Assembly (NCBI GenBank): GCA_963793095.1
Contig: CAWBYY010000011.1
Span: 1,151,631-1,215,630 of the forward strand
Length of the DNA stretch: 64,000 bases
Direction: 5' to 3'
Source of the DNA: an uncultured Chloroflexia bacterium
GTDB taxonomy: Bacteria; Chloroflexota; Anaerolineae; Anaerolineales; UBA4823
In this document: positions 6,766-64,000 of the stretch, one piece after another
How the letters are laid out: each line of letters begins with the position of its first letter
How positions within the stretch are numbered: the stretch's first letter is position 1
The notes under the pieces: model-generated
The model's input: only the letters and a program-made list of their open reading frames with translations
Told to the model about the DNA's origin: nothing
Database searches by the model: none
Position numbers and translations under genes: made by a program

Positions 6766-6774
6766 ATTGCTGAT

Positions 6775-35821: not shown

Positions 35822-35848
35822 ATATATAAATCCACTAAACCAATAATT

Positions 35849-37702: not shown

Positions 37703-37736
37703 ACTTAGCGTATCTTAATCAAATAAATAAACAGCG

Positions 37737-38963: not shown

Positions 38964-38971
38964 GCCCTCAT

Positions 38972-40527: not shown

Positions 40528-41625
40528 ATGGTTAAGACTGATCCGGCTATCCCTTACAATTCGCTGCCAAAACTGCCACCTAAAATTGATTTTGAAACAA
40601 AACAGATTTTGAGAAAAGTAGCAAGTGCCAGGGCTGCCTTAGCTGAAATGAAGGGTACAGGAGCCATAATACCAAATCTGGCCATGCTTATTAATACCCT
40701 GACGTTACGGGAGGCAAAGGACAGTTCTGAAATTGAGAATATTGTGACTACGCAAGACGAATTGTACGTTGCTTTTGCTACACAACAAAAAAAAATCAGT
40801 CCATCGATAAAAGAAGTCTTAAATTACAGGCAAGCCTTATGGTATGGCTACAATCTGATCAAAAAAAGGAAAATACTAACCATCAACGACATTACCAGTA
40901 TCCAGCAAATAATCATCGGGAATAGTGCTGGTATCCGCACACAACCCGGAACACAGTTAATAAACATGACGACCGGTGAAGTGATCTATACACCACCAGA
41001 AGGGGAAGAAGTGATACGTAAATTGCTTAAAAACCTGGAGGATTACATTAATTTGGATGACAATGGAATAGATCCCCTTATTAAAATGGCTGTGATTCAC
41101 CATCAATTTGAATCAATCCACCCTTTTTATGACGGGAATGGAAGAACGGGGAGAATTACAAATATACTTTACCTGGTTATGAAAGGATTACTGGATATTC
41201 CAATATTGTATCTAAGTTCCCATATCATTAAGAAAAAAAGGGAATATTACAGATTGCTTTCCGAAATCAGAAATGATAACAATTGGGAGGAATGGGTTTA
41301 TTATATACTCCATGGTATAGAAGAAACAGCGAATCAAACAACCATATTAATCAAAAAGATCAAAGAATTATTGGAAGTAATGATTGAAAAGATCAGAACA
41401 GAATTACCATCTGTATATTCCAAGGATTTGGTGGAAACCATCTTTGAGCAGCCCTATTGCAGGGTTGCTTCGATAGTTGATAAAGGATTGTATGAAAGAA
41501 GAACAGCCATGAAATATTTACGAGAGCTTGAAAGGATTGGTTTACTAAAAGCGATCCCTAAAGGAAACCAGATACTATTCCTCAATATAAGTCTCTATGA
41601 TCTGCTCAAACAGGATTTCAATTAA
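40528..41625 (+). CDS. Fic-family protein (class II, self-inhibited AMPylase type) with C-terminal wHTH
   Basis: 365-aa ORF. The Fic motif is HPFYDGNGRTGR. The N-terminal inhibitory motif SSEIEN fits (S/T)xxxE(G/N). The C-terminus RTAMKYLRELERIGLLKAIPKGNQILF looks like a winged helix. The gene is noticeably AT-rich by eye. Confidence 0.9.
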   Translation: MVKTDPAIPYNSLPKLPPKIDFETKQILRKVASARAALAEMKGTGAIIPNLAMLINTLTLREAKDSSEIENIVTTQDELYVAFATQQKKISPSIKEVLNYRQALWYGYNLIKKRKILTINDITSIQQIIIGNSAGIRTQPGTQLINMTTGEVIYTPPEGEEVIRKLLKNLEDYINLDDNGIDPLIKMAVIHHQFESIHPFYDGNGRTGRITNILYLVMKGLLDIPILYLSSHIIKKKREYYRLLSEIRNDNNWEEWVYYILHGIEETANQTTILIKKIKELLEVMIEKIRTELPSVYSKDLVETIFEQPYCRVASIVDKGLYERRTAMKYLRELERIGLLKAIPKGNQILFLNISLYDLLKQDFN

Positions 41626-41631: not shown

Positions 41632-42894
41632 CTAGATCCGCGGTCCGTTTTCCAGCAGATATTCTTCTGCTTCGGCGTTCCAGAGTCCGTCATGCAGTTT
41701 CACTATTTTATGCAGGGCTGAAAAAATGGGATCTTCTTTGCCCTTCTCCGCGAATTCCTCAATGGCTGTCAGGGGAAGATCGATATGGGTATAGATCAGT
41801 TTTTTGCTCCCGGGGATACCGGGCAGGTTACAGGTAGCCTGAATAACGGCATTCAGTCCGCCGACATGGGTAACCAGGTAGGCCGGACTGATACGCCCGT
41901 CGACCATCATCCCGATGGACTTCCGAATATCATCCGTATTACCACCATTCGTTGCCACTATATGTGTGGCATTGTAATGGACATTGTAAAAGTTCAGGTC
42001 AGCCCTGAATTGTGTGTCAGCAGGTCCTGCAAAGAAGTTAAGGCAGCCATCTGTAGCTAGTAAGCTGTCTCCCTGTTCGACCAATGGTTTAACAGGGGCA
42101 AATACAAGTACATCGTCATAGCCTTTCTGTTCCCCTGCCAGGGATCTCAGATATGCTTCCGCGTCCTCATGGTCCGAGGTATTGACATAGTACAGGTCTA
42201 TACCCAGGCTGGCGGCCTCCTCCCTGGTGACAAGGCCGGCAATATAGTCCAAGCGTTTCTTGTCGATATCGGTCACAACCAGCAAGGAGGGCCTCCTTTC
42301 TGTATGAACAATAAAATCAATAGCAGCGATTCCCATAGGACCTGCGGCAGCGAGCATGGCCATTTTGCCTCCTTCCTTGATGCCCATCTTATGGACATAG
42401 GATCCAAAAGTTGTATGATAATGGGCCTCGAAGGTTCCGGCCACGCAGGAATAGGGTTCTGCCAGGGAACTCATAAAGTATGAATCGGCCTCGAAGGGGA
42501 TGATGCAATCCTGTTCCAGATATACCGCCGGGATGATCACATGTGTGGCATCTCCACCGAAATAGGGGAAAGAATAACCGGCTGCTTCCAGGGTCAGTGC
42601 CCCGAGTGCGGGCTGTACCGTAAATTTGTCCCCCGGCTTGAATTTGTGCTTCCACTTATCCCCTACTTCCAGGATTCTGCCGGCAAATTCATGTCCCACA
42701 ATGGTAGGGTTGTCCGCCACATCATTGGGCACCCTTTTGTGATCGGCACCAAGCCTGGCCGCCTTATAGGATGACATGCAGAGGCTGTCTGATATGACTT
42801 CGGCCAGGATCTCATCATCCTTCATGGCAGGCAATTCAAACTCCTCAAGCCTGAGGTCTTCCTTACCGTATAATCGAACCGCTTTCGTCTTCAT
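41632..42894 (-). CDS. zinc-dependent alcohol/polyol dehydrogenase (MDR family)
   Basis: 420-aa ORF. It has the GHEFAGRILEVG zinc motif and an N-terminal GroES-like fold pattern (AVRLYGKEDLRLEEFELP). It is the last gene of the minus-strand operon. Confidence 0.75.
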   Translation of the reverse strand: MKTKAVRLYGKEDLRLEEFELPAMKDDEILAEVISDSLCMSSYKAARLGADHKRVPNDVADNPTIVGHEFAGRILEVGDKWKHKFKPGDKFTVQPALGALTLEAAGYSFPYFGGDATHVIIPAVYLEQDCIIPFEADSYFMSSLAEPYSCVAGTFEAHYHTTFGSYVHKMGIKEGGKMAMLAAAGPMGIAAIDFIVHTERRPSLLVVTDIDKKRLDYIAGLVTREEAASLGIDLYYVNTSDHEDAEAYLRSLAGEQKGYDDVLVFAPVKPLVEQGDSLLATDGCLNFFAGPADTQFRADLNFYNVHYNATHIVATNGGNTDDIRKSIGMMVDGRISPAYLVTHVGGLNAVIQATCNLPGIPGSKKLIYTHIDLPLTAIEEFAEKGKEDPIFSALHKIVKLHDGLWNAEAEEYLLENGPRI

Positions 42895-42909
42895 ATCTGA
42901 TTTTCATTT

Positions 42910-44916
42910 TTAGTTCAACATGGTTTGTCCCCCTGTCACAGGCAGTGCCTGTCCCGTTTCATATTCCTGATCCATGATGTACAGCACCGCCTTCAGCACA
43001 TCCTCCACCCGGCAGCCCCTGCCCATCGGGACCTGCTGCTCATAGTGCCTGCGGACATCCTCGATGGTTTTTGCACCAGGTACCTTTCCTGCATTCAGGT
43101 ATTGTATAAATAAGCCATTTTCAGGATCGGACCAGAGGGGTCCCTCGAAAAAGTTACCCGGACAAACGGAATTTACCTTGATCCTGTATGGTGCCAGCTC
43201 CAGGGCAAAGGACTGGGTGAGTCCAATCCCCCCGAACTTACCCCCGGCATAGGCAAAGTTCTTTTTACTGCCGGTCAGTCCCGATTTTGAATTTATCTGG
43301 ATGATGTCCATAAAATATTCGCTGTCATATGCATGCTGCCTTTTCATTATGGCTGAAGCATATTTGGCGCAGTAAAAATAGGCATTGTAGTTGATCTTTG
43401 TGACCAGATCAAAGGTCTTTTCATCCATTTCATCAAGTCCGCCTGCACGCAGTATCCCGGCATTGCTGATAAATACATCGAGTCCGCCAAAAGCCTCCAC
43501 CGTCTCCTTCATAAGATCCTGCAGACTTTTGCTGTCTGACACATTGGTCTTTACAAAAATTGCCTGGTTTTTCCTTTTCAGGCTGTCAAGTGTTTCCTTG
43601 AACTCTTTCCCTGCATCCTCATTGATATCGGCGATTACCACATTGGCCCCTTCTTCGAACAATCCCCTGGCAATGCCTGCACCGAATCCCATGGCGGCGC
43701 CGGTAACAATAATAATTTTTGGCGCTGCTTTCCCCCCGTCCGCATCGCCGGCAGCTGTTTTGCGCCGGTAATTTTCAACCTCCCAGGTATCGATGAACTG
43801 AATATCTTCCGGGCTCATGAAATGTTGTCCGCCGAAGGATTCGCTCAGCCATGAAATCTTCATCATGTCTTCAAATACATCCAGGATGATATCCGCACCG
43901 CTTGCATCGTCTCCGACCGCCACCATGCCGAGTCCCTTGATAAGGATCACCTTCGGCAAAAATCCAAATGCCTTCTCAAATGCAGCGATGTGGGATTGCA
44001 GGTCTCCCAGCATTTCCTCCGGAGGGTCTGTTGCTTCACAATAAATATAATGTGACTTGCAATATACTATGATATCCGGGGTGAAGGGTTTGCTGATCTT
44101 CTGATAATTGCTGGCAGAACGGGTGAAATGTTCAACAAGTGCATTGTTGCGTATCCTCAAAGTCTTGCCTCCGCTCTTTGACAACATCATACGAAGGGCC
44201 GGGAGAATATCAGTAACCCTTCCGTTTACCTCCAGATCCCCTTCCGGAGTATCCTTTTGAATGACAGATCCAACTTTGGAAAAAACCTCCTCGTATGTTT
44301 TATGTATCTCCCCGGTCGTTTCCGCACTTACAAAGATCCCATGATTCTGAAGCAGGATAATGGCCGGATCCTTTCCGGTTTTCTCCCGGTATTCCTGCAA
44401 CTTCTTTTCGACTTCCTTGAAAAGGATGTAACCTGGATCTGTGTATGGGATATACAGGGCTTCCTCTCCAAAGAGTTTTGATACATGGTTCACCACATCA
44501 TTGCCGCACATCAGTCCGTTCACCAGGGTGGGATGAAGATGGACCACAAATCTATATTGTATTAGGTCATGGAGGGATGTTTCAACAGAGGGACGACGGT
44601 CCGGGGTAAGATTGGCATCGGCCAGGTCATCCTTGATCTCACGTTCCCGCTGGAAGGGATCGGATGAATACTCAGCGGATGAAATCCGCTTCAATTTGTC
44701 ACGGTCGAGCATGGCAAAACCACCATCTGTGATATCGGAAAGCGCAAAGCCACTGGCCTTGATCCATATCCTGTCAGGGGTTTTCATTGAGGTATTGCCC
44801 CCTCCGGCAATGACATAACGTTTGTTCTGCCCGTAAAACCGGGAAATATTGTACAAGTTCCTGCAGATCTTCTTGCATGGGTGTATATTATGATGTGAAT
44901 TCCTTAATGACCGCAT
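42910..44916 (-). CDS. bifunctional class II aldolase / short-chain dehydrogenase (RhaEW-like)
   Basis: The N-terminal half is class II aldolase/adducin-like (YVIAGGGNTSMKT...WIKASGFAL, FVVHLHP). The C-terminal half is an SDR (IIIVTGAAMGFGAGIARGLFEEGANVVIADIN, NSKSG...YAGGKFGGIGLTQSFALE). The start is uncertain: the ATG at 44916 overlaps the upstream gene by 29 nt, and the track start at 45036 seems too long. Confidence 0.7.
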   Translation of the reverse strand: MRSLRNSHHNIHPCKKICRNLYNISRFYGQNKRYVIAGGGNTSMKTPDRIWIKASGFALSDITDGGFAMLDRDKLKRISSAEYSSDPFQREREIKDDLADANLTPDRRPSVETSLHDLIQYRFVVHLHPTLVNGLMCGNDVVNHVSKLFGEEALYIPYTDPGYILFKEVEKKLQEYREKTGKDPAIILLQNHGIFVSAETTGEIHKTYEEVFSKVGSVIQKDTPEGDLEVNGRVTDILPALRMMLSKSGGKTLRIRNNALVEHFTRSASNYQKISKPFTPDIIVYCKSHYIYCEATDPPEEMLGDLQSHIAAFEKAFGFLPKVILIKGLGMVAVGDDASGADIILDVFEDMMKISWLSESFGGQHFMSPEDIQFIDTWEVENYRRKTAAGDADGGKAAPKIIIVTGAAMGFGAGIARGLFEEGANVVIADINEDAGKEFKETLDSLKRKNQAIFVKTNVSDSKSLQDLMKETVEAFGGLDVFISNAGILRAGGLDEMDEKTFDLVTKINYNAYFYCAKYASAIMKRQHAYDSEYFMDIIQINSKSGLTGSKKNFAYAGGKFGGIGLTQSFALELAPYRIKVNSVCPGNFFEGPLWSDPENGLFIQYLNAGKVPGAKTIEDVRRHYEQQVPMGRGCRVEDVLKAVLYIMDQEYETGQALPVTGGQTMLN

Positions 44917-46106
44917 TGCCCAGGTCCCGGTAATAATCCTGGTTCTCAACTTCCATATTCCCCTGTCCATTAATAAAACCTTGTTGTCCCCTGGCAAGCA
45001 GGTATTGATGGGCAGCAAGCACACAGCATCCTTCATAGGATATCTTCTTCAGACGGGGAGGCAGGTCCCTGTCCTTTTCCACCTTTACGGTTATGGGGAA
45101 AAGTCCCGGGGAATTGTGCTCTGTCCCAAAAGATATCACATATTTCCTGCCATGGAAAAAGTCAACAAATTCCTCAAGCTTTTCAAGGGAATTCCGCAGG
45201 GGGATCAGTTCCAGGCAGGATACACCAAAGGATTGCAGCACCTCATCCATCCGGTCCCAGTCCCCTTCGAACCCCGTCATATTCCCCTTGGGGTCATCCA
45301 GCAGGACCGGATAACAGGGTATTCCTTTTGCATCCAGGATGAAGTCATATGATCGTTTGAAGGTCAGGAAACGCCTCCTTGTCCTCCGGCACAAAGGCCC
45401 TGCCCCCTGTCTTCAGCAAGACCGAGCGGATCTCATTTTCCACAGCGGAGGGATCATTCAGGGCAGCAGTCAAGGGCCTTCCATCAAACATTGATTCGAA
45501 GAAGCCGTTCTGATCCTCCGGGGAATAATGATCCATCACAGCTTCTCTGATGGCCCTGGCGATATGTCTTTCACGTACCAGCTTATTGGCATATTTTTCC
45601 CTGATCTGCCCATAGTCAATACTGAACCGGGCATTGATCGAACTGAGATGGGCATCTGCCTTTCGTATCATTTCTTTTACCTGGTCCTGGCTGTTCCGCT
45701 GCAGATCCTCGAAAAACATCCTGTTCTGATCAGAGATGGAAAGCGGATGCTTTAATGCCTTCCCGCTGAAATAGGTCCTTCCGGGATTGTTCGGATCGTT
45801 GACGCGTATACCCTGCTCCTGCATATCCAGCATCAGTCCCATGAATTCTATATTGAACAGCGGAAATATCCTGTTCTGCTGTCCCGCCCGGGCAAACTCA
45901 TCATACCCGTCTACCGTGAAGAAATCATTTATCCCGAGGACCTTCACCCCTTCTTCCACGGCCATTCGAAACATCTGTTCAATGCTGTCAAAGGCACAGA
46001 AGGAATTCGGGCTGTGAAGATGTCCGTTCACTTCAGGTACCTGCCGGTCGTGACCGTGCATACCCAGCAGTGCCTCCGGTGCGGGAAGGTTTTGTAAGAA
46101 ATCCAT
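44888..46106 (-). CDS. PHP-domain-like metal-dependent phosphoesterase family protein, function unknown; one frame break near 45365
   Basis: Pieces 45345-46106 and 44888-45394 join as EDKEAF|LTFKRSYDFILDAKG. The N-terminal VNGHLHSPNSF...VKVLGINDFF resembles PHP motifs I and II, with the second His replaced, and FGTEHNSPG lies near the C-terminus. The assignment is tentative. Confidence 0.4.
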
Positions 46107-46129
46107 ATTTTCTGTTTTATGCTTTCATC

Positions 46130-48599
46130 CTAAATTCCCCTCAGGGCCCTCCAGATTTTTTTCTCATCTGTAAAATCATTGCTGACCTTATGCCCTTTCA
46201 GGGGCAGTATCTTTTCATGGATGGCATCCACTATCCATTCGGCCTGGGGAAAGAAATAATCTTCCAGCTCATGTGCCGGGATGATCCAGTTCCTGGAACC
46301 CACAACCACAGGTGGGGCATCCAGGTCATCGAAGGCCATTTCGGTAATGTTCTGTGCCATATCCTTCAGGAAAGAGCCTCTTTCACTGGCATCACTGGTC
46401 AGCAGTATCCTGCCGGTTTTTTCCACCGATTGCAGGACAGGTTCGTAATTGAATGGGACCAGGGTCCGGGCATCGATCAGTTCAACCGACAGGCCATGCT
46501 TCTCCTCGAGGATATCCGCAGCTTCCCTGGCCCGGTAAAGGGTGGCTCCAATGCTCAGTATGGTGATGTCTTTTCCTTCCCTTTTAATATCCGGTTCCCC
46601 GAGGGGGATCTCATAATAACCTTCCGGAACCCCCTCCTTATGGAATTCCTCGCCAATCACCATATATCCGCTGGCTTTCGAAGAAGATCACCGGGTCCGT
46701 ACCCTGCAGGGCAGCATTCATCAATCCTTTTGCATCGTAGGGAGTAGCCGGGAAAACCACCTTGATCCCGGGTATATGCGCCACAAGTGAGGACCAGTCC
46801 TGAGAATGCTGCGCCCCGTATTTGGAGCCTACGGATACCCTGACCACGACCGGCATCCTGATGAGGTTCCCGCTCATGGCCTGCCACTTGGGCAACTGGT
46901 TGAAGACCTCGTCGCCAGCGCGTCCCAGGAAATCACAATACATGATCTCGGGGATCACCCGACCGCCACACATCCCGTAACCGATGGCTGTTCCAACAAT
47001 GGCTCCCTCGGAGATGGGGGAATTGAACAGGCGGTGATAGGGAAGCGCTTCCGTCAATCCGCGGTATACGGCAAAAGCCCCGCCCCAGTCACGGTTTTCC
47101 TCACCGTAGGCCACCAGGGTCGGATCTTTATAGAAGCGGTCGATGATGGCTTCAAACAGTCCGTCGCGCAACTGGTACTGTTTCATTCCCGAGTAAGGTT
47201 TCCCCTCGGCATCAAATGCATACCGCTCCTTGTTCGATATCTGTTTCACCCGTGGATTCTCTGCCATGGGAAGGGATACCTCAGGTTTCCTGTCTTCCAT
47301 CCTATCGATGGACTGGTCAGAGAACATCATTTCACCGATCATTTCCTGCGATTTTACCAGGTCCATTCGTGGTGATATATTGTCATCTATAGATAAGGTC
47401 ATGGCCCATTTGACCAGTTCTGCTGTTTCCTCTTTGATCTTGTTCAGGGCCGGTCTTGCTGCTACCCCTGCATTCATCAGCTCTTCTCCGTAGGTAATGA
47501 TGGAATCGACCCCCTGCCATGCTTCCAGTTCCTCCTTGCTGCGATAGGTTGAGGCATCAGAGGGAGAGTGGCCGCTGAAACGGTAGGTCAGTACATCCAG
47601 GAAAATGGGACCCTGTTTCTGCCGGATCACATCCATTTTCCTGCGATAGGCATCGATCACGGCCAGGGGATTGTAACCATCTACCCGCTCGGCATGCATA
47701 TTATGCTTGTTCAGGGCAGCACCTACGCGGGCGGCAACCTCGTAACCCATGGTTTCACCGCAGGTCTGTCCCCCCATACCGTACTGGTTATTCATGATGT
47801 TGAAGATCAGGGGCAATCCGCCCTTCTGGTCTCCTTCCCAGAGCTGATGGAACTGGTCCATCGTGGCAAAGGCCAGGCCTTCCCAAACGGGACCGCAACC
47901 CAGGGATGCATCCCCGATATTGGCCACCACAATGCCCGGTTTCCGGTTCACCTTCTTGTACAATGCCGCACCCACGGAAATGTCTCCCGAGCCCCCCACA
48001 ATGGCATTGTTCGGATAGATGCCGAAGGGCGTAAAAAAGGCATGCATGGAACCTCCGAGTCCCTTGTTAAATCCTGTCTCCCTGGCAAAGATCTCTGAGA
48101 GCGTGCCATAGATCAGGAAACGAATGGCCAGGGATTTCACATCTCCCTTATGGTCCTTTTCCACGATTCCCAGGATTTGTCCGCCGAAGTATTTCTTCAT
48201 GATATCCATCAGGGAATCATCATCAAGCTTCTGAATGGCCGACAATCCCTTTGCCAGAATCTCTCCATGTGAACGGTGGGATCCGAAGATGTAGTCATCC
48301 TGGTCCAGCAGGTAAGCCATACCCACAGCGGATGCCTCCTGTCCGATGGAAAGGTGGGCCGGACCCGGATGATTGTAGGAGATCCCCTGGTATTCACCCG
48401 TGGTTTTGATCAGGTTAAGCATGGTTTCAAATTCACGAATGATAACCATATCACGAAAAATCCTTAAAAAATCATCCTTGGCAAAATTCACCTTTTCCTC
48501 TTCAATTGATTTATCATAGGCATTTACCGGTATCGGATCTATGTTCAGTGTCCTTGGTTTCCTGATCTGCTCCGGATCTAAAAATTGTCGTTTAGGCAT
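46130..48599 (-). CDS. TPP-dependent 2-oxoacid/acetoin-type dehydrogenase E1 component, fused alpha-beta subunits; one frame break near 46660
   Basis: ORF 46638-48599 holds the E1-alpha region ([12 protein letters not shown]-binding region [35 protein letters not shown]) running into E1-beta ([28 protein letters not shown]). ORF 46130-46663 supplies the E1-beta C-terminus ([21 protein letters not shown]). Confidence 0.8.
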
Positions 48600-48603
48600 T
48601 TTA

Positions 48604-49986
48604 TTATTGTTTTATTAAGTCGTGATCAAATGTTTCAATTTCATTCTTTATCCCGGCCAGCAACAGCGTGGCTGGTCCGCCGTCGAGGGCCCTGTGATCA
48701 TAGGTCAGTGAAAGACCCATGTAAGGCACAAATCCAAAGGCCCCTCCCTCCAGCTGTGCAGGCCGCTGGATGATGGTATTCACCCCCAGTATCCCTGCCT
48801 GGGGCAGGTTGATAACAGGCGTAAACATTTCCACCCCGTAAGCACCCAGGTTGGATATGGTAAATGTTGCTGCTTCGGGCTGCAGCAGGTCCGGATCCAC
48901 ATTGCCGCCCCGGCAGGCTGCCGCCAGCGCGGAAAGCTGGGCCGAGAGTCCGGGCAGCGATAGATCATCCGCATTCCTGAGGGCCGGGACCATGAGTCCA
49001 CGCTCAGTATCCACGGCCATCCCCAGGTGAACCTTCCTGAAATACCGAATGGAATCTCCCAGAAAATGGACGTTTGCGTCCGGATGTTTCTTCAGGGCCC
49101 TGATGAGGGCATAACTGACCATATCATTCAGGGTGATATTGTATTCATAACCTTCCGCTATTAATTTTTTTACCTTTTCCCGGAGTGAAAGGATCTTCCG
49201 GGCATCGGCACCCAGGTGGTGGGTGAGCTGGGCTGAATTTTGAAGGGATGCATGCATGGCCCTGGAGATCAGTTTGCGCATATTGCTGAGCGGCCTGACT
49301 TCTGCATCCTCCGTGAAGGAAAATACCGGAGCCGGTTTGGACTGATCTGCCGGTATCGGGGCCGTGGCTACTTCTCCAGGGGATGGTGCAGCAGCAGGAG
49401 CTTCATCCTTGATTGGCGGTTCTGCAACCGGGGGCTCTTCAGCGGCGGCCAGGGTCTCAAAAGGCGGAATACTTCCATCCATAATGGCCTCAATATCCCT
49501 GACAATGATCCTGCCATTCGGACCGCTGCCCTTGATAGCGTCTATGCTGATTCCCTTATCACCGGCTATTCTGCGGGCCCTGGGAGATATCCTGGTCTTT
49601 CCATCCGGACCCGGCCTAGAGGTTTCCTGCAGGGTGGCTAGGGCCATCCCGGCGGCAACAGTTTCCGGTGCGGTTGACGGTGACTGCTCAGGTGCTGTTA
49701 CAGCAGCGGTATCGGCTCCGAAAACGAGGGGTCTTTCAACCGCTTCACCTGGTTCACCAATAACGGCAACTTCTGCCAGGACAGGTACCTCATCACCTCC
49801 CCCATAGAAAATATCCAGCAGGATGCCCTCTGCCTTGGACTCTTCCTCAAAGGATGCCTTGTCCGTTTCATAGCTGAAAAGAACATCACCAATTGCTACT
49901 TTGTCCCCTTTTTTCTTGAACCATTCCGTAATGATGCAGGTCTCCACCGATTGTCCCTGCTTGGGTAATATTACCGTTGTTGCCAT
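48604..49986 (-). CDS. dihydrolipoamide acyltransferase (E2) component
   Basis: ATG at 49986 ([22 protein letters not shown]). It has a lipoyl domain with ETDKASFE, a Pro/Ala-rich linker, a subunit-binding domain ([28 protein letters not shown]) and the catalytic [12 protein letters not shown]. Only 4 nt separate it from the E1 gene. Confidence 0.9.
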
Positions 49987-50002: not shown

Positions 50003-50018
50003 ACTTGTATATACAAGT
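50003..50018. promoter_or_regulatory. 16-bp perfect palindrome ACTTGTATATACAAGT, candidate GntR/HutC-type operator for the E2 operon
   Basis: Perfect palindrome read directly from the sequence. Its core GTATATAC fits the HutC-subfamily consensus GT-M-TA-K-AC. It lies between a minus-strand TAATTTTG box (50020-50027) and the E2 ATG (49986). Confidence 0.5.
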
Positions 50019-50019: not shown

Positions 50020-50027
50020 CAAAATTA
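50020..50027 (-). promoter_or_regulatory. candidate -7 promoter box (TAATTTTG on minus strand) for the E2-E1-PHP-aldolase/SDR-ADH operon
   Basis: Plus-strand CAAAATTA equals minus-strand TAATTTTG, which matches TAnnTTTG. It lies 34 nt upstream of the E2 start. Confidence 0.35.
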
Positions 50028-50119
50028 AGATTATTTATTGAACCACAAAGAGATTTTGTTAAATTGTTAAAACATTTCGTAAAATATTGATTAGCTGTTG
50101 TTTTGAAGTATATTATTAT

Positions 50120-50193: not shown

Positions 50194-50916
50194 ATGGTAC
50201 ACAAAACAGCATACCGGTTACCCAGGTACAGGGAGCTTTACGAGCAACTGCGACGGCATATTGAGGAAGGGATATATGATCCCGGGGACTTGCTCCCATC
50301 GGAAAATGAATTGTGTGCGGTCAACCAGGTCACCCGTCCCACTGTAAGAAGGGCCCTGGATCTGCTGGCCAACGAAGGATATATTAAAAAGCACCAGGGA
50401 CTGGGATCCGTGGTTCAGCATCCCCCGAAGGGGATCGGCATCTTATCCTTTTCCGGCACCACCTCAGCCATCGGGAAGGATAACCTGAGGACGGTCGCCA
50501 TTGTCAAACCCTATGTCAGGCCATGGCCGGATCAGTTTATTTTTGACCTGATGGATACTGAGCGGGAATCGGGCTGCATCTATTTTGAGCGGCTCAGATA
50601 TGTGAATGACATTCCCGTGTTTTATGACCTCTCCTACCTGCCAAATATTAACCTGCCCCGGTTCACTTCCCGGAACCTGAACAATGCTTCCCTGTTTGAT
50701 ATTTTAAGAGAGCATTACCGGATTGAAATCAAGGGCGGCGTGCAATACATAGAAGCCATCCCTGCCACGAAGAATTGCCAGAGACACCTGGGTGTGGATC
50801 CTGACAGGCCCATCCTGAAATTGCAGAGAAAGCTCAGCACCAACCGCCTGGATTACTCGGTCTATTCAATCCTCTTTTGTAATACTGAAGAGCATAGTTT
50901 GTACGGGGAGTTTTGA
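50194..50916 (+). CDS. GntR-family transcriptional regulator, HutC subfamily (UTRA effector domain)
   Basis: 240-aa ORF. It has an N-terminal wHTH (LPSENELCAVNQVTRPTVRRALDLLANEGYIKKHQGLGSVV) and a C-terminal UTRA-like region. It is divergent from the E2 operon. Confidence 0.85.
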   Translation: MVHKTAYRLPRYRELYEQLRRHIEEGIYDPGDLLPSENELCAVNQVTRPTVRRALDLLANEGYIKKHQGLGSVVQHPPKGIGILSFSGTTSAIGKDNLRTVAIVKPYVRPWPDQFIFDLMDTERESGCIYFERLRYVNDIPVFYDLSYLPNINLPRFTSRNLNNASLFDILREHYRIEIKGGVQYIEAIPATKNCQRHLGVDPDRPILKLQRKLSTNRLDYSVYSILFCNTEEHSLYGEF

Positions 50917-50959: not shown

Positions 50960-51160
50960 GAACTTCTCTGTAAGTGTACAAATCATTGAGTTGACATCCT
51001 CCCCCACGTAAACGAAGGGGATTCCATCGGCTTTTACGAAGCCACGGGCAGTACTTCCTCACGGTTTCCTGCAGGTTCCTGCTTCCGACCACTTATGCGG
51101 TTCGATCCACAGGCCATCCCCGTCTGCCCGACGGTTAAAATGTTTTTGGCAGCATTCACA
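50960..51160 (-). ncRNA. predicted omega (re)RNA region of TnpB; position inferred, not demonstrated
   Basis: In characterised TnpB systems the guide RNA derives from the 3' end of tnpB plus the right end of the element. Here that maps to the minus strand around the tnpB stop (51034) and the terminal motif at 50994-51044. I could not verify any secondary-structure model. Confidence 0.3.
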
Positions 51161-52254
51161 TCTGCATGCTGCTCATATCCGCAATCCAAACATACAAAAA
51201 CATCCTGTGATCTCCTGTTCTCCTTTGATGTATATCCACAACGCGAACATTGCTGGGAGGTGTATCTGTAATCCACTTCAACAAGCTTTCCTCCCTGCCA
51301 GTCAAGCTTGTAATCAAGCTGGCGTCTGAACTCATACCATCCCTGGTCTAGGATGGATTTGTTCAACCCTGCCTTTGACCTGACATGGCTTCCCGGATCA
51401 GCTTCTGTACCCCTGGCCGATCCACTCATGCCCCTTATGTTCAGCCTTTCGACATGCACCCTGGCGTGGCTCTTGCTGGTTTGGGTGCTGAGTTTATGAA
51501 GAAAGTCCAAACGTATACATGATATGGTATGATGAATCCCTGATATCTTCTGTTTTTGTTTTTTCCAGTTCTGCGACCCCTTCAGTGCTCTTGATAGTTT
51601 CCTTTGCTCACGGGCAAGGGCATCTTCATGCCTGCGGAAGCTGTGCACCCCCTCTATCATGGTGCCATCAGAAAACACAGCAAAGCAGTTTATACCAGCA
51701 TCAATTCCTATTGCTGAATTTGAAGGGTGCTTTGGTATATCAATATCCTGTTCAACCTGTATCGATGCATACCACCTGTCCGCTTTCCTGGTTATGGTGA
51801 TATTCTTTACCCTGCCATCAATATCCCTGCTCTTGTGAAACCCCACCCATCCGATCTTGGGAAGAAAGATTCTGCGGTTATCAATCCTGAAACCCTGGGG
51901 AAAGCGGATACCATCACCCCTTCCTTGCTTTTTGAAAACAGGAAGGCGCTTCAGGGGCTGTTTCCGGTCAAAACAATCCCGGAAGGCCCTTTCCAGGTCC
52001 ATCAGCTTCTGTTGCAGAACCTGAGAGGGGCATTCTTTCAGAAAACAATACTCTTCGGATTGTTTCCAGAGCCTCAGCCAGAAGGCAAGTTCATTGTACC
52101 AGAGTATACCCTGTCCCTTTTCAAGGCGCTTAAGGTTCATCGCCAGGGATTTGTTCCAAAGAAAACGCGATGAACCGCAGAAACGAACCAGCTTTGTCTC
52201 GGTATCAAGATTGGTCTTCAACCTTACTTTGTATGCTTTTCGTATATTGGGCAT
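51034..52254 (-). CDS. tnpB: TnpB (OrfB_IS605) RNA-guided nuclease, apparently intact
   Basis: The likely start is the ATG at 52254 (MPNIRKAYKVRLKTN), giving 406 aa. RuvC-like triad candidates are AIGIDAGIN, VHVERLNIRGM and HADVNAAKNI. The zinc finger is CSRCG...CLDCG. The tail KQEPAG is typical. Confidence 0.9.
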   Translation of the reverse strand: MPNIRKAYKVRLKTNLDTETKLVRFCGSSRFLWNKSLAMNLKRLEKGQGILWYNELAFWLRLWKQSEEYCFLKECPSQVLQQKLMDLERAFRDCFDRKQPLKRLPVFKKQGRGDGIRFPQGFRIDNRRIFLPKIGWVGFHKSRDIDGRVKNITITRKADRWYASIQVEQDIDIPKHPSNSAIGIDAGINCFAVFSDGTMIEGVHSFRRHEDALAREQRKLSRALKGSQNWKKQKQKISGIHHTISCIRLDFLHKLSTQTSKSHARVHVERLNIRGMSGSARGTEADPGSHVRSKAGLNKSILDQGWYEFRRQLDYKLDWQGGKLVEVDYRYTSQQCSRCGYTSKENRRSQDVFVCLDCGYEQHADVNAAKNILTVGQTGMACGSNRISGRKQEPAGNREEVLPVAS

Positions 52255-52284
52255 ATACCTTAATTTACTAAAAATAGTCAACTT

Positions 52285-52693: not shown

Positions 52694-52764
52694 TTTTCAG
52701 TAACTTTACTTACCCAGGAATCAACCGTAAAAACCATTTCATCATTAATAGTTTTTATTTTTGT

Positions 52765-54504: not shown

Positions 54505-54508
54505 ATAT

Positions 54509-61474: not shown

Positions 61475-61482
61475 TACTTTTG
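61475..61482 (+). promoter_or_regulatory. candidate -7 promoter box TACTTTTG for rhaT-rhaM-rhaA
   Basis: Matches TAnnTTTG 28 nt upstream of the probable rhaT ATG at 61510. Confidence 0.3.
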
Positions 61483-61509
61483 ATTATAACAACACACCAA
61501 ACCATACTC

Positions 61510-62529
61510 ATGATTGGCATTCTTCTCATTGCAATAGGCAGCCTCGGTGCTGCCAGTTTTTATGTTCCCTTTAAAAAGGTTAAGGTCTGGGCATGGGAGT
61601 CTTACTGGATTAGCCAGGGACTTGCAGCCTGGATCATCTTTCCGTGGGTTTTTGCCCTGTTAACGGTACCTTCAGGTACCCTGATGGATATTATCCATGA
61701 CGCACCCACATCTGCCAAATGGCTGAGCATCATGTTCGGTGCTCTATGGGGTGTTGGCGGACTCACATTCGGGCTCAGCATCAGGTATATGGGCATTGCC
61801 CTGGGCCAGAGCCTTGTACTGGGACTCACAGCCGCCCTGGGTACCCTGATACCTTCCATAGTTGCAGGTGAAAACCTGTTCGCAACCAGGGCCGGAATAC
61901 TGACCATGATCGGTGTGGCCGTTGCGCTGGCGGGAATTACAATAGTCGGTTACGCCGGGGTCCTTAAGAACAAAAACCTGACCGAAGATGAGAGAAAGGC
62001 TGCAGTGAAGGATTTTGCCCTGAAAAAGGGAATCCCGATCGCCATTATTTCAGGTATCATGAGTGCGTGCTTTGCCTATGGTTTCCAGTCAGGGAAACCC
62101 ATCGATGAAGTTGCAGCCCAATATGGCACCCATGAATTGTTCGTCAGTAATCCCACCCTCATCTTTATCCTGCTGGGCGGATTTGTTACCAATTTCATTT
62201 ACTGTGTCTGGCTGAATATTAAAAACGGCAGCTATAAGGATTATATTAGCGTATCCGGAGGAGTCCTCCTGAATAACATTGCCTTCACATTCCTGGCCGG
62301 ATTGCTTTGGTTCCTTCAGTTCCATTTTTACGGAATGGGGAAAAGCCAGGTACCTGCTACAATGGAAGCCTTCTCATGGAGCATCCTTATGGCACTGAGT
62401 ATCTCTTTCAGCAATATATGGGGACTCTTCCTCAAGGAGTGGAAAGGAGTGGGCAGGAAAACCATCATGGTACTGATCATCGGGATCATCATCCTGATCC
62501 TTTCAACCTTTGTCATCAACCTTAATTAA
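61510..62529 (+). CDS. rhaT: L-rhamnose/proton symporter
   Basis: The probable start is MIGILLIAIGSLGAASFYVPFKKVKVWAWESYW, which parallels E. coli RhaT (FYAPFKKVKKWSWE). The protein is polytopic and hydrophobic throughout. Confidence 0.85.
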   Translation: MIGILLIAIGSLGAASFYVPFKKVKVWAWESYWISQGLAAWIIFPWVFALLTVPSGTLMDIIHDAPTSAKWLSIMFGALWGVGGLTFGLSIRYMGIALGQSLVLGLTAALGTLIPSIVAGENLFATRAGILTMIGVAVALAGITIVGYAGVLKNKNLTEDERKAAVKDFALKKGIPIAIISGIMSACFAYGFQSGKPIDEVAAQYGTHELFVSNPTLIFILLGGFVTNFIYCVWLNIKNGSYKDYISVSGGVLLNNIAFTFLAGLLWFLQFHFYGMGKSQVPATMEAFSWSILMALSISFSNIWGLFLKEWKGVGRKTIMVLIIGIIILILSTFVINLN

Positions 62530-62538
62530 AGTATTGTC

Positions 62539-62858
62539 ATGTATAAGAGAAAGGCATTTAAAATGAAGCTGAACCCGGGGATGCTTGAGGAATATAAGAA
62601 AAGGCATGATGACCTCTGGCCAGAACTGCACAGCTTGTTGAAAAGACAGCGGATTATCGGAGTATAGCATCTTTTTCGATGAGGAAACCAATATTCTGTT
62701 TGCCTTCCAGAAAGCAGGCAGGTGACCAGGGCTCGCAGGATCTGGGACAAACAGAGATTGTACAGAAATGGTGGAAGTACATGGCAGATATCATGGAAAC
62801 AAACCCGGATAACTCGCCTGTTTCCAAAGAGCTGGTTGAAGTTTTTTACATGGAATAA
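62539..62858 (+). CDS. rhaM: L-rhamnose mutarotase; 2 frame breaks
   Basis: The hand-joined sequence is [35 protein letters not shown]|[25 protein letters not shown]|[45 protein letters not shown]. It parallels E. coli RhaM/YiiL. The first break lies at the AAAA run 62641-62644. Confidence 0.8.
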
Positions 62859-62883
62859 CCAACATCAAAATATTTATACACTT

Positions 62884-64000
62884 ATGGCAAAATCAGAGAA
62901 TATCCAGAAGGCTTTCGAGCTGGCAAAAGCACAATACGCTGAACTTGGCGTCGACGTCGGGGAAGCACTGGCAAAACTTGAAGATTTCCAGATCTCACTT
63001 CATTGCTGGCAGGCTGACGATGTGGGTGGATTTGAATCACCGGATGCCGGTTTATCGGGAGGCATCCAGGCTACGGGAAATTACCCGGGAAAGGCACGTA
63101 ACATTGAGGAGCACAGGAAGGATGTTGAGAAAGCAATGGACCTTATACCCGGAAAGCAAAGGTTGAACCTCCACGCTATTTATGGGGATTTTAAGGGGGA
63201 AGTGGTGGACCGGGACCAGATCGAAACGAGACATTTTCAAAGCTGGATAGACTGGGCCAGTGAACTGGGCATCGGAATCGATTTCAATTGTACTGCTTTT
63301 TCCCATCCCAAGGCTGATGATAATCTTACCCTATCCCATAAAAATACGGATATCAGGGACTTCTGGATTGAACACACCAAACGATGCAGGAGGATATCTG
63401 CGGATATGGGAAAACAACTGGGCACTCCCTGTATTCACAATATCTGGATCCCGGATGGTTCCAAAGGATGTACCGGTGGACAGGTATACACACCGGGCAT
63501 TGCTCAAGGATTCCCTCGACCAGATCTTTGCAGAAAAATTACCCGCCGAGCATCTCAAGGATGCCATAGAAAGCAAATTATTCGGCATTGGGGTTGAAGC
63601 AATGACCGTTGGTTCATCTGACTTTTACCTGGGTTATGCCATCCAGAATCAAACACTGATCTGCCTGGACAGCGGACATTTCCATCCAACCGAACAGGTT
63701 GGTGACAAGATCTCGGCATGCCTGTTGTTCGTCCCGGAAATACTGCTCCATGTAACCAGACCCATCAGATGGGACAGCGACCATGTGGTTACCATGAATG
63801 ATGATACCCTGATGATCGCCCAGGAGATTGTTCGTTGTGATGCACTTGAAAGGGTTCATATGGGACTGGACTTCTTCGATGCCAGTATCAACAGGATCGG
63901 GGCATATGTGGTAGGCACAAGGGCTGCCTTGCAAACCATGTTGTTCGCCCTGCTTGAGCCAAGGAAACAGCTGCTTGAATACGAAAACAATGGTCAGTTC
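62884..64000 (+). CDS. rhaA: L-rhamnose isomerase (3' end outside window); one frame break near 63466
   Basis: MAKSENIQKAFELAKAQYAELGVDV...ISLHCWQADDVGGFE...LNLHAIY continues after the break (IWIPDGSK|DVPVDRYTHR...) with SDFYLGYA, CLDSGHFHPTE and RWDSDHVV to the window edge. Confidence 0.85.

What the first reader, a model, noticed from the sequence alone, without database searches (positions are those of the whole stretch)
41632..49986. Tightly packed five-gene operon combining acetoin/2-oxoacid-type E2 and fused E1 alpha-beta with a PHP-like protein, an aldolase/SDR fusion and a Zn-ADH
Seen in the sequence: the five minus-strand genes are separated by 4, 23, -29 (overlap) and 15 nt, face a divergent GntR/HutC regulator, and include no E3 (lipoamide dehydrogenase) gene. 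Established knowledge: aldolase/SDR fusions of this size are known as RhaEW, combining rhamnulose-1-phosphate aldolase with lactaldehyde dehydrogenase. E1/E2 pairs of this type oxidatively cleave 2-oxoacids or acetoin-like alpha-hydroxyketones to acyl-CoA. Inference: I know of no described 6-deoxyhexose pathway that needs a TPP/lipoate E1-E2 step or a PHP phosphoesterase. The combination suggests an undescribed lower pathway, for example one converting a C3 or C4 hydroxy-carbonyl product of the aldolase into an acyl-CoA, with a phosphatase step. The PHP-like protein has its motif-II histidine replaced (INDF), so its chemistry is unclear.
Basis: partly seen in the sequence, partly recalled or inferred. 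Interest (0 to 1): 0.6.

Follow-up and report, generated by a model that had tools for sequence, protein, structure and literature searches.

The report
Uncharacterised deoxy-sugar operon with E1–E2 complex
This five-gene operon recurs next to rhamnose and fucose genes in Bacteroidota and in at least one Actinomycetota genome, and it joins sugar-phosphate dehydrogenases and an odd PHP-fold protein to a thiamine/lipoate E1–E2 complex, which suggests an undescribed route from 6-deoxy sugars to acetyl-CoA; the gene breaks in this copy are most likely sequencing errors.

Summary
Three of them (E1, PHP-like, aldolase/SDR) are each broken here by one extra base. The "-29 overlap" is an artefact of one of these; the true gap is 9 nt. 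The same single-base insertions break carB, rhaA, GH106, GH32 and other genes in the window. Corrected ORFs are full length with dN/dS 0.05–0.18. I therefore read the breaks as assembly errors.

The gene set is strongly conserved. E2–E1–PHP–(aldolase)SDR–MDR with a GntR recurs in many Bacteroidales and Marinilabiliales. Distant versions occur in an Acidimicrobiales MAG and a second distant contig, with E1 58–59% identical. An operator (TTGTAwwTACAA) is conserved upstream of E2. Rhamnose/fucose genes flank 14 of 39 loci with E1 and 0 of 48 without.

The PHP–Ald/SDR–MDR triad also occurs alone. E3 is present in relatives. The fusion is not an RhaEW orthologue (24% identity, below the NCBIfam cutoff). 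No paper found describes the cluster.

Best reading: an undescribed oxidative lower branch of 6-deoxyhexose catabolism that ends in acetyl-CoA. The exact chemistry, and the PHP-like protein's role, remain unknown.

The parts
50194..50916 (+). GntR/HutC-family regulator (wHTH + UTRA effector domain), divergent from the operon
   Evidence: Pfam GntR 63.5 bits and UTRA 67.6 bits. It co-occurs with E2/E1 in 33 of 39 E1-containing loci and in none of 48 loci without E1.
50003..50018 (.). Perfect 16-bp palindrome ACTTGTATATACAAGT, the likely GntR operator. It lies 16 nt upstream of the E2 start codon.
   Evidence: It is the only match in the 64 kb at up to 3 mismatches. The core TTGTAwwTACAA recurs 1-3 times in the GntR-E2 intergenic region of most related loci that carry GntR and E2, in several genera, and was not seen upstream of rha genes in those loci.
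50020..50049 (-). Putative Bacteroidetes-type promoter for the operon: -33 TTTG (50049-50046), an 18-nt spacer, then -7 TAATTTTG (50027-50020), directly abutting the operator
   Evidence: Read from the sequence against the published Bacteroides consensus TTTG/TAnnTTTG, which I recall from memory. This is inference only. The sigma-70 scan shows no enrichment.
48604..49986 (-). E2 dihydrolipoyl acyltransferase (lipoyl domain with TDKA, E3-binding domain, catalytic domain with DHRALDG)
   Evidence: Pfam; motifs read from the translation. NCBIfam PDH/OGDH E2 models match but fall below their cutoffs.
46130..48599 (-). Fused E1 alpha-beta, TPP-dependent, 822 aa after correction. It is interrupted here by one extra base at or near 46657.
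   Evidence: The 120 best database relatives are 806-836 aa (nearly all 822) and at least 78% identical. Versions in two distant loci are 58-59% identical.
44888..46106 (-). PHP-fold protein of 405 aa with a remodelled metal site (HxH kept; motif II is N-D). It is interrupted here by one extra base at or near 45347.
   Evidence: AF2 model pLDDT 87. Foldseek top hits are TrpH-type PHP phosphoesterases 3e0f, 2yb1 and RNase AM, at 14-15% identity.
42910..44878 (-). Class II aldolase-like domain + linker domain + SDR fusion, 655 aa after correction. True start is ATG 44878. One extra base at or near 44848 shifts the frame after codon 10.
   Evidence: The aldolase domain keeps the GGGNTS, KASG, SVET, HLH and NHG motifs. 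The SDR half is closest to sorbitol-6-phosphate dehydrogenase 5o3z, E = 1e-43.
41632..42894 (-). Atypical 420-aa Zn-dependent MDR dehydrogenase, polyol / 2,3-butanediol dehydrogenase-like
   Evidence: Pfam ADH_N is above its cutoff and ADH_zinc_N just below. PDB hits are ketose reductase 1e3j, sorbitol DH and (R,R)-butanediol DH 6ie0. Cys / His-Glu / Glu zinc ligands and GPMG are read from the translation.
61480..64000 (+). Context: rhaT (61480-62529) and rhaA (from 62722, frameshifted near 63465, running off the window)
   Evidence: Pfam RhaT 236 bits and RhaA 299 bits; three-frame translation compared with the L091 RhaA.

Best explanation
The locus is a functional operon, E2-E1-PHP-like-Ald/SDR-MDR. 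The breaks in it are sequence errors. It is repressed by the divergent HutC-type GntR through the palindrome that overlaps the promoter.

It encodes a conserved, so far uncharacterised, oxidative 'lower' branch of 6-deoxyhexose (L-rhamnose/L-fucose) catabolism. The methyl-bearing C4-C6 half of the sugar ends as acetyl-CoA, rather than as lactaldehyde or propanediol.

Proposed working (all steps inferred):
1. Isomerase and FGGY kinase, encoded nearby, make the 6-deoxy-ketohexose 1-phosphate.
2. The MDR, in the manner of a butanediol or sorbitol dehydrogenase, oxidises the penultimate CH3-CHOH- group to a methyl ketone. This creates an acetoin-like CH3-CO-CHOH-R motif.
3. The TPP-dependent E1 cleaves the C4-C5 bond. 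E2 passes the acetyl group to CoA. E3, encoded elsewhere in this genome, reoxidises the lipoamide.
4. The SDR, in the manner of the RhaW aldehyde dehydrogenase, oxidises the remaining C4 aldehyde phosphate to 3-oxo-tetronate 4-phosphate.
5. The fused class II aldolase-like domain releases DHAP (plus CO2, in the manner of OtnC).

Net result: DHAP + acetyl-CoA + CO2.

Shown: gene content, intact catalytic motifs, conservation, the operator, and linkage to rha/fuc genes. Inferred: the substrates, the order of steps, and the role of the PHP-like protein. That protein is a metal-dependent hydrolase or isomerase acting on a phosphorylated intermediate, and it is left unassigned.
For: - Conserved gene order in close and distant Bacteroidota.
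- Cross-phylum recurrence of PHP-like + MDR + E2(+E3) + fused ~820-aa E1 next to FucI-like, FGGY, FucU and sugar ABC transporter genes in an Acidimicrobiales MAG (L094), and next to a FucI-like gene and a sugar ABC transporter on a second distant contig (L096). E1 there is 58-59% identical and the PHP-like protein 31-32%.
- Rha/Fuc genes lie within 10 kb in 14 of 39 E1-containing loci against 0 of 48 without E1 (Fisher p = 2.8e-6). rhaT-rhaA are in this window.
- Loci with isomerase + kinase but no aldolase within 10 kb exist (L091, L094). A common variant has lost the class II aldolase core. Both point to E1 as the C-C-cleaving step.
- The regulators are sugar-phosphate-type (HutC/UTRA here, SorC in distant loci), not PdhR-type.
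- The operator is conserved.
- The MDR resembles sorbitol and (R,R)-butanediol dehydrogenases. The SDR resembles sorbitol-6-P dehydrogenase and the RhaEW SDR.
- The aldolase domain keeps its zinc triad, catalytic Glu and phosphate site.
- E1/E2 motifs are intact, and dN/dS is 0.05-0.33.
Against: - There is no experimental datum at all; the chemistry rests on family analogies.
- By sequence, E1/E2 are closest to pyruvate dehydrogenase models, not to any acetoin-specific model.
- The PHP-like protein, one of the most constant members, has no role in the scheme.
- In the variants without the aldolase core, the last step has no assigned enzyme.
- The PHP-Ald/SDR-MDR triad occurs in 48 loci without E1/E2 or rha/fuc genes within 10 kb, often with an FSA/TalC-like gene instead. 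Its substrate therefore need not be a deoxyhexose derivative.
- The association statistics are not corrected for phylogenetic relatedness.
Confidence: 0.4

Rival explanations
1. Classical route with known chemistry. The fusion works like RhaEW: an aldolase gives DHAP + L-lactaldehyde, and the SDR oxidises lactaldehyde to L-lactate. Lactate becomes pyruvate. E1-E2(-E3) is simply a dedicated pyruvate dehydrogenase complex making acetyl-CoA. The MDR is a lactaldehyde/propanediol oxidoreductase used for redox balance.
For: The fusion has the same two-domain architecture as RhaEW over 98-100% of its length. RhaEW activities were shown in vitro (PMC3870299). The best NCBIfam matches for E1 and E2 are PDH models. 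The overall stoichiometry is identical to that of the preferred scheme.
Against: The fusion fails the RhaEW equivalog cutoff (237 against 568 bits) and is 24% identical to a true RhaEW. No lactate-to-pyruvate enzyme (Lut, LldD, LDH) appears in any locus. Variants lack the aldolase core, and several have no aldolase within 10 kb. PHP-like and MDR, both constant members, have no necessary role. E1/E2 fall below every PDH cutoff.
Confidence: 0.25
2. The module acts on a different sugar phosphate, such as a polyol phosphate, a 5-deoxypentose from 5'-deoxyadenosine, or a higher sugar as proposed for the E. coli ydj cluster. Its link to rhamnose/fucose loci is secondary.
For: The triad occurs without rha/fuc genes in 48 loci, often followed by an FSA/TalC-like gene. 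Adenosine deaminase is a neighbour in 15 loci. PfkB kinase, HAD phosphatases, a YdjG-like AKR and a FucA-like aldolase are neighbours in others. The SDR half is closest to sorbitol-6-P dehydrogenase. One PHP-like protein is fused to a mannitol-dehydrogenase-family domain.
Against: Whenever E1/E2 are present, the only recurrent recognisable sugar-specific neighbours are rha/fuc genes, and this holds in two phyla. The fusion proteins are singletons on single contigs.
Confidence: 0.2
3. Two unrelated units lie side by side: a housekeeping 2-oxoacid dehydrogenase (source annotation '2-oxoisovalerate dehydrogenase E1') with its GntR regulator, and a separate sugar operon. There is no shared pathway.
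For: The GntR operator lies only in front of E2. The triad exists without the E module. Other genes are inserted between E1 and PHP in some loci, and the E module lies downstream in L044.
Against: Gaps are 4-23 nt in this clade. Linkage is kept through rearrangements, different regulators and different phyla. All four E1-anchored look-ups landed next to PHP/SDR/MDR genes, although PHP was not called in L091.
Confidence: 0.07
4. In this genome the operon is a decaying pseudogene cluster, with three real frameshifts.
For: Three of the five genes are frameshifted, and an IS605-type TnpB gene and a Fic gene have been inserted at the flanks.
Against: The same kind of single-base insertion breaks carB, rhaA, GH106, GH32, an MFS transporter and an MBL-fold gene. 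Every uncompensated coding indel, apart from a few at gene ends or boundaries seen against single relatives, is a +1 insertion, and those inspected are not in homopolymer runs. Corrected ORFs have no other defects, and dN/dS is 0.05-0.18.
Confidence: 0.06

Closest known systems
RhaEW (YuxG): bifunctional L-rhamnulose-1-phosphate aldolase / L-lactaldehyde dehydrogenase (Rodionova et al. 2013, PMC3870299)
   Same: N-terminal class II aldolase-type domain + linker domain + C-terminal classical SDR, about 650-700 aa, aligned over the full length. Zinc triad, catalytic Glu and phosphate-binding motifs are present. It is found in the neighbourhood of rhamnose genes.
   Different: Only 24% identical to an RhaEW encoded inside a rha operon. 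It scores below the NCBIfam equivalog cutoff (237 against 568). It is not adjacent to rhaA/rhaB but is embedded between a PHP-like gene and an MDR gene, downstream of E1/E2. A common sister variant has lost the aldolase core altogether.
2,3-Butanediol dehydrogenase + acetoin dehydrogenase enzyme system (AcoA/B/C/L)
   Same: An MDR secondary-alcohol dehydrogenase plus an E1(alpha, beta)-E2-E3 TPP/lipoate complex. That complex cleaves a CH3-CO-CHOH-R compound into acetyl-CoA and an aldehyde. This is the chemical logic proposed here.
   Different: E1 here is a single fused 822-aa chain and matches no acetoin-specific model. The E2 match to the acetoin E2 model PRK14875 is confined to the lipoyl end (65.8 against 307 bits). 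The regulator is HutC/SorC-type, not AcoR/sigma-54. The genomic context is sugar catabolism. The substrate is presumed to be phosphorylated.
Pyruvate dehydrogenase complex (alpha2beta2-type E1, E2, E3)
   Same: It gives the best sequence matches for both E1 halves and for E2. The TPP motif, lipoyl-Lys, E3-binding domain and DHRxxDG are present.
   Different: All scores are below the PDH equivalog cutoffs. E1 is fused with a long alpha part. The complex is operonic with sugar-phosphate enzymes and is controlled by a sugar-type repressor rather than PdhR.
TrpH/YciV-type PHP phosphoesterases (Cv1693 pAp phosphatase 2yb1, BAD_1165 3e0f, RNase AM)
   Same: The same PHP barrel with an inserted helical domain (Foldseek E about 1e-11, target TM 0.69), and the N-terminal HxH motif.
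   Different: Identity is 14-15%. The motif-II His is replaced by Asn-Asp. Invariant Asp/Glu residues (D270, E299, E329) lie at or just after predicted strands beta4-beta6; I read these as replacing metal-binding His, but that comparison rests on recalled PHP motifs. The helical insert is larger. The context is sugar catabolism, not nucleotide or RNA metabolism.
OtnC, 3-oxo-tetronate 4-phosphate decarboxylase (class II aldolase family) of the threonate/erythronate pathways (recalled from Zhang et al. 2016 PNAS; not read here)
   Same: A class II aldolase-fold enzyme that yields DHAP from a phosphorylated C4 beta-keto acid. The stand-alone aldolase-family neighbour c27 has OtnC as its best NCBIfam match (174 bits against a cutoff of 250).
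   Different: No OtnK, OtnI or LtnD genes are present. Whether the fused domain decarboxylates or performs aldol cleavage is untested.

Membership tests
RhaEW (bifunctional rhamnulose-1-P aldolase / lactaldehyde dehydrogenase) | Two-domain architecture: class II aldolase-type N-terminus + SDR C-terminus, about 650-700 aa | tested here: met
   Pfam Aldolase_II at 24-208 and adh_short at 400-588. The protein aligns over 98-100% of its length to annotated fusions.
RhaEW (bifunctional rhamnulose-1-P aldolase / lactaldehyde dehydrogenase) | Sequence membership: a score above the NCBIfam equivalog cutoff (TIGR02632 / NF006189) | tested here: not met
   237.4 bits against a cutoff of 567.75, and 208 against 634. 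It is 24% identical to the RhaEW of the Rhodococcus pLRE138 rha operon.
RhaEW (bifunctional rhamnulose-1-P aldolase / lactaldehyde dehydrogenase) | Encoded within the rha operon next to rhamnose isomerase and rhamnulokinase | tested here: not met
   Its neighbours here are the PHP-like gene and the MDR gene. rhaT/rhaA lie about 16.6 kb from the fusion gene (11.5 kb from GntR) on the other strand. In relatives the rha genes lie outside the GntR-E2...MDR block.
RhaEW (bifunctional rhamnulose-1-P aldolase / lactaldehyde dehydrogenase) | Aldolase and lactaldehyde dehydrogenase activities | not testable with these tools
   Only motif conservation can be shown: GGGNTS, KASG, SVET, HLH, NHG; SDR TGxxxGxG and YxxxK.
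2-oxoacid / acetoin dehydrogenase multienzyme complex | E1 with a TPP-binding fold (alpha + beta parts) and E2 with a lipoyl domain, E3-binding domain and catalytic DHRxxDG | tested here: met
   Pfam E1_dh, Transket_pyr, Transketolase_C, Biotin_lipoyl, E3_binding and 2-oxoacid_dh. GDAS...NN, TDKA and DHRALDG are seen in the translations.
2-oxoacid / acetoin dehydrogenase multienzyme complex | E3 (dihydrolipoamide dehydrogenase) available | tested here: inconclusive
   No E3 gene is in the window. E3 lies between E2 and E1 in 14 of 39 related loci and in L094. The rest of this genome could not be examined.
Pyruvate dehydrogenase complex (equivalog level) | Scores above the NCBIfam PDH E1-alpha, E1-beta and E2 cutoffs | tested here: not met
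   E1-beta 229.5 against 321; E1-alpha 194.3 against 393.85; E2 241.7 against 445.
PHP phosphoesterase (TrpH/Cv1693 subgroup) | PHP barrel fold with a helical insertion | tested here: met
   AF2 model pLDDT 87. Foldseek hits 3e0f, 2yb1 and 9etk at E about 1e-11, TM 0.5 (query) and 0.69 (target). Pfam PHP scores 28.0 against 26.4, on the N-terminal 64 residues only.
PHP phosphoesterase (TrpH/Cv1693 subgroup) | Full set of His/Asp/Glu ligands of the trinuclear metal site (HxH, motif-II His, and so on) | tested here: not met
   HxH (H29, H31) and E87 are invariant, but motif II is N60-D61. The invariant residues at or just after the later predicted strands are D270, E299 and E329-H330. A profile search against PDB sequences finds no PHP enzyme.
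Zn-dependent MDR polyol dehydrogenases | GroES-like domain with catalytic zinc ligands and a Rossmann domain | tested here: inconclusive
   ADH_N scores 29.2 (cutoff 23.5); ADH_zinc_N scores 30.5 (cutoff 31.8). The Cys, His-Glu, Glu and GPMG motifs are present. PDB similarity is mostly confined to the N-terminal 100 residues; the 6ie0 and 7y9p hits extend to about residue 220. The protein is 420 aa, against about 350 for typical members.
GntR/HutC repressors | N-terminal GntR wHTH + C-terminal UTRA domain, with a palindromic operator near the regulated promoter | tested here: met
   Pfam. A conserved palindrome lies in the divergent intergenic region. Binding and the effector were not testable.

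The most novel reading that the evidence does not exclude
The E1-E2-E3 complex is not a 2-oxoacid dehydrogenase. It is a sugar-phosphate 'acyloin' dehydrogenase that itself performs the C-C cleavage of a 5-keto-6-deoxy-ketohexose 1-phosphate. This would give an aldolase-independent, lactaldehyde-free route from L-rhamnose/L-fucose to acetyl-CoA + DHAP + CO2. In this reading the PHP-fold protein has been recruited for non-phosphatase chemistry (isomerase, decarboxylase or C-C hydrolase) at a carboxylate-rich metal site.
Probability: 0.2. Interest if true: 0.85.

Novelty: new variant of a known kind. Interest (0 to 1): 0.62.

Why it matters
[quoted passage not shown] Their known bacterial routes all pass through lactaldehyde or through 2-keto-3-deoxy acids.

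A conserved module that brings a TPP/lipoate complex, an atypical MDR and a remodelled PHP-fold protein into these loci would add a new way of harvesting the methyl-bearing half of the sugar as acetyl-CoA. It would give a first function to a widespread family of fused 820-aa E1 proteins, now mis-annotated as '2-oxoisovalerate dehydrogenase'. It would also give a first function to a PHP subfamily represented by 659 clusters at 50% identity and carried by at least 549 species-level genomes.

Such an assignment would change how carbon and redox budgets are predicted for sediment and marine Bacteroidota. Cultured carriers exist (Draconibacterium, Mangrovibacterium, Saccharicrinis, Sunxiuqinia), so the hypothesis can be tested directly.

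Tried and rejected
- Pseudogene reading of the three frameshifts: rejected in favour of assembly error. carB and many other genes carry the same +1 insertions, and the corrected ORFs are perfect.
- 'It is RhaEW': rejected at the orthologue level.
- Sequence search of the PHP-like profile against the PDB gave nothing relevant. Only the fold search worked.
- Rosetta-stone fusions (PHP-like + aldolase II; mannitol-DH + PHP-like): each is a single contig, one of them truncated. I treat them as weak hints only.
- The sigma-70 promoter and terminator scan showed no enrichment over shuffles. It is not informative for Bacteroidota.
- The GntR operator was searched in the whole window and in the loci. 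I found no sites in front of the rha or PUL genes in this window, or in front of the rha genes of the related loci, so regulon-based linkage to rhamnose could not be shown.
- Eight completed literature searches and the Rodionova 2013 paper gave no description of the cluster. Two further calls (15, 33) were rejected for term syntax and re-run.
- An MtnB-like dehydratase + enolase-phosphatase analogy for aldolase II + PHP was considered. I set it aside because the aldolase core is dispensable in a common variant.

Full report
**1. What is in the sequence**

ORF listing and Pfam scans confirm five minus-strand genes between 41632 and 49986:
- E2 (48604-49986): lipoyl, E3-binding and acyltransferase domains.
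- A fused E1 alpha-beta.
- A PHP-like protein.
- A class II aldolase + SDR fusion.
- A 420-aa Zn-MDR (41632-42894).

A divergent GntR+UTRA (HutC-type) gene lies at 50194-50916. No E3 gene was found anywhere in the window.

Three of the genes are broken in the sequence as given:
- E1 is split into 46638-48599 and 46130-46663.
- The PHP-like gene is split into 45345-46106 and 44888-45394.
- The aldolase/SDR gene starts at ATG 44878 but shifts frame after about 10 codons.

Alignment with 9-10 related contigs of 82-93% nucleotide identity shows that each break is one extra base in the window, at or near 46657, 45347 and 44848. With the true start of the fusion gene, the intergenic gaps are 4, 23, 9 and 15 nt.

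**2. Are the breaks real?**

Deleting the three bases restores ORFs of 822, 405 and 655 aa. These are the exact lengths of the orthologues in L001. They contain no further stops, and dN/dS against L001 is 0.05, 0.09 and 0.18.

The same type of lesion breaks many other genes in the window:
- the housekeeping carB gene, in at least three pieces;
- two GH106 genes;
- an MBL-fold gene, an MFS transporter and a GH32 gene;
- rhaA.

Apart from a few sites at gene ends or boundaries seen against single relatives, every uncompensated coding indel relative to relatives is a +1 insertion. Those whose context I inspected are not in homopolymer runs. I conclude that the window comes from a low-accuracy assembly and that the operon is intact in the organism. 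Real pseudogenisation is a minor rival.

**3. Conservation**

*The PHP-like family.* The corrected PHP-like protein belongs to a roughly 405-aa family. It has 4410 database hits at E <= 1e-3. It has 659 representatives at 50% clustering. At least 549 species-level genomes carry a relative. The named relatives in the loci retrieved are mostly Bacteroidales and Marinilabiliales. The nearest named relative is the MAG 'Bacteroides sp. SM23_62'.

*Core and accessory genes.* I clustered the ORFs of 86 loci. The core is PHP -> Ald/SDR -> MDR (84, 81 and 70 loci). E1, E2 and GntR are present in 38, 32 and 30 loci, usually directly upstream.

*E1.* E1 is remarkably constrained. The 120 best hits are 806-836 aa (nearly all 822) and at least 78% identical.

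*A second arrangement.* Four look-ups anchored on such E1 proteins all landed next to the same partners: GntR<>E2-E1-PHP-SDR(393 aa)-HAD-MDR. PHP was not called in one of them, L091. In this arrangement the SDR protein aligns only to residues 220-655 of the fusion, so the class II aldolase core is absent.

*Other phyla.*
- In an Acidimicrobiales MAG (L094), a 32%-identical PHP-like gene lies between Zn-dependent dehydrogenases. It is next to SorC-E2-E3-E1 (820 aa, 59% identical). The same locus carries FucU, a FucI-like isomerase, an FGGY kinase and a sugar ABC transporter.
- On a second distant contig (L096) the order is SDR, PHP-like, Ald/SDR, MDR, SorC, E2, E1 (816 aa, 58% identical), beside a FucI-like gene.

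Linkage that survives changes of gene order, regulator and phylum is strong evidence for a shared function.

**4. Link to 6-deoxyhexoses**

In the deduplicated set, RhaA, RhaM, RhaT, rhamnulokinase-type FGGY, FucI, GH78, GH106 or GH29 genes, or the tandem class II aldolase gene (c27) that accompanies them, lie within 10 kb in 14 of 39 loci with E1. They lie within 10 kb in 0 of 48 loci without E1 (Fisher p = 2.8e-6). For loci of at least 18 kb the counts are 13 of 30 against 0 of 24. The test is not corrected for relatedness.

The window fits this pattern. It is a polysaccharide-utilisation locus that contains:
- SusC/D;
- five heparinase II/III-like lyases;
- a PL22-like lyase and a BNR_4 protein;
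- two GH106 rhamnosidases and a sulfatase;
- rhaT-rhaA, 11.5 kb from GntR.

Several loci carry isomerase and kinase genes but no aldolase within 10 kb (L091, L094).

**5. Regulation**

A perfect 16-bp palindrome, ACTTGTATATACAAGT (50003-50018), lies 16 nt upstream of the E2 start. It is unique in the window at up to 3 mismatches. Its core, TTGTAwwTACAA, recurs one to three times in the GntR-E2 spacer of most related loci that carry GntR and E2, across several genera.

It abuts a Bacteroidetes-type -7 box (TAATTTTG) with a TTTG 18 nt further upstream. This is read against the published consensus and is inference only. The arrangement implies repression at the transcription start.

I found no copies before the rha or PUL genes in this window, or before the rha genes of the related loci. 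The regulator therefore appears local to this operon. The distant loci use SorC-type regulators instead. Both regulator families typically sense sugar phosphates (established knowledge).

**6. The individual proteins**

*Ald/SDR.* The protein fails all NCBIfam equivalog cutoffs for bifunctional aldolase/SDR proteins. It is 24% identical to the RhaEW of a genuine Rhodococcus rha operon. Its aldolase domain keeps the phosphate-binding, His-x-His...His and Glu motifs. Its SDR half is closest to sorbitol-6-phosphate dehydrogenase (E = 1e-43).

*MDR.* The catalytic zinc and NAD motifs are present. It weakly resembles ketose reductase, sorbitol dehydrogenase and (R,R)-butanediol dehydrogenase.

*E1 and E2.* Both resemble PDH/BCKDH-type enzymes but fall below every curated cutoff.

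*PHP-like.* It models confidently (pLDDT 87). It is structurally nearest to TrpH-type PHP phosphoesterases at 14-15% identity. However, motif II is Asn-Asp, and invariant carboxylates lie at or just after the later predicted strands where I would expect metal-binding His. Its chemistry is open.

**7. Mechanism**

The constant set across all variants is PHP-like + MDR + a second dehydrogenase + E1/E2(/E3). The aldolase core is dispensable.

I therefore favour a scheme in which E1 is the C-C-cleaving enzyme:
1. The MDR oxidises the CH3-CHOH- end of the 6-deoxy-ketohexose 1-phosphate to an acetoin-like methyl ketone.
2. E1/E2/E3 release acetyl-CoA.
3. The SDR oxidises the C4 aldehyde phosphate.
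4. The aldolase-like domain yields DHAP and CO2.

Each step has a family precedent: butanediol DH with acetoin DH, RhaW, and OtnC. None has been tested, and the PHP-like protein remains unassigned. Confidence is 0.4.

The main rival has the same net stoichiometry. It runs RhaEW-like aldolase/lactaldehyde DH -> lactate -> pyruvate -> a dedicated PDH (confidence 0.25). It lacks a lactate-oxidising enzyme in every locus, and it does not explain the aldolase-less variants.

A third reading is a different sugar-phosphate substrate (confidence 0.2). It is supported by the 48 triad-only loci. These often carry an FSA/TalC-like gene instead of E1/E2 (28 of 48 against 8 of 39).

**8. Novelty**

No paper in the searchable library describes this cluster. 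The enzyme families are all known. What is new is their conserved combination and its attachment to deoxyhexose loci. I classify it as a new variant of a known kind (a sugar catabolic operon), with a realistic chance of new chemistry.

Noticed in passing
window 428-2680; 2843-5521; 15360-17964; 54425-56426; 57016-58195; 58393-60131; 62722-64000: Single-base insertions fragment many genes across the whole window: carB, two GH106 genes, an MBL-fold gene, an MFS sugar transporter, GH32 and rhaA. Nearly all uncompensated coding indels relative to relatives are +1 insertions, and those inspected are not in homopolymer runs. This points to a low-accuracy assembly.
   Followed up: yes
window 40528-41625: A Fic/DOC-family gene (Fic_N + Fic + SoFic-like_C) with low GC (0.41) lies convergent to the MDR gene, only 6 nt away. 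The stretch is absent from the syntenic relatives L008 and L010, so it is a recent insertion.
   Followed up: partly
window 51034-54504: An IS605-type TnpB (OrfB_IS605 + Cas12f1-like TNB) and a sulfatase lie between GntR and the MBL-fold gene. In L005, L007 and L009 the MBL-fold gene follows GntR directly, so this block is an insertion. I did not look for a TnpB guide RNA.
   Followed up: partly
window 5530-7947; L091 19177-22469: Two adjacent URO-D-family genes lie next to a GH106 rhamnosidase here, and URO-D genes flank a GH29 fucosidase in L091. They may be MtaA-like methyltransferases for O-methylated deoxy sugars. This is pure speculation.
   Followed up: no
L019-L086 (for example L033 14910-15575): In loci without E1/E2, the PHP-Ald/SDR-MDR triad is usually followed by a 221-aa FSA/TalC-like gene (TIGR00875, 203 bits against a cutoff of 246). 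It is present in 28 of 48 loci without E1 and in 8 of 39 with E1. The FSA-like enzyme and E1/E2 may be alternative C-C-cleaving partners, or the pattern may be a lineage effect.
   Followed up: partly
L019, L021, L024, L027, L028, L030, L034, L037, L041, L043, L050, L052, L053, L071, L078: An adenosine deaminase gene (NF006850, 535 bits) lies upstream of the PHP-like gene in 15 loci, directly adjacent in most, often together with an uncharacterised 176-aa protein. This could hint at 5'-deoxynucleoside salvage, or it could be coincidence.
   Followed up: no
L067, L075, L077, L080, L082, L084: Some loci add HAD-IIA and HAD phosphatases, a YdjG-like aldo-keto reductase, a FucA-like aldolase, a PfkB kinase and a second MDR around the triad. 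This is reminiscent of the E. coli ydj cluster of unknown substrate (recalled from memory).
   Followed up: no
window 28108-40375: The polysaccharide-utilisation locus has an unusual run of five heparinase II/III-like lyase genes, plus a PL22-like oligogalacturonate lyase and a BNR_4 protein. GH106, a sulfatase and rhaT are nearby. This suggests a sulfated, uronic-acid- and rhamnose-containing glycan as the target (ulvan-like or rhamnan-like).
   Followed up: no
window 46100-46130: The 23-nt E1-PHP spacer is an insertion specific to this genome. In L001 the two genes overlap by one base.
   Followed up: partly
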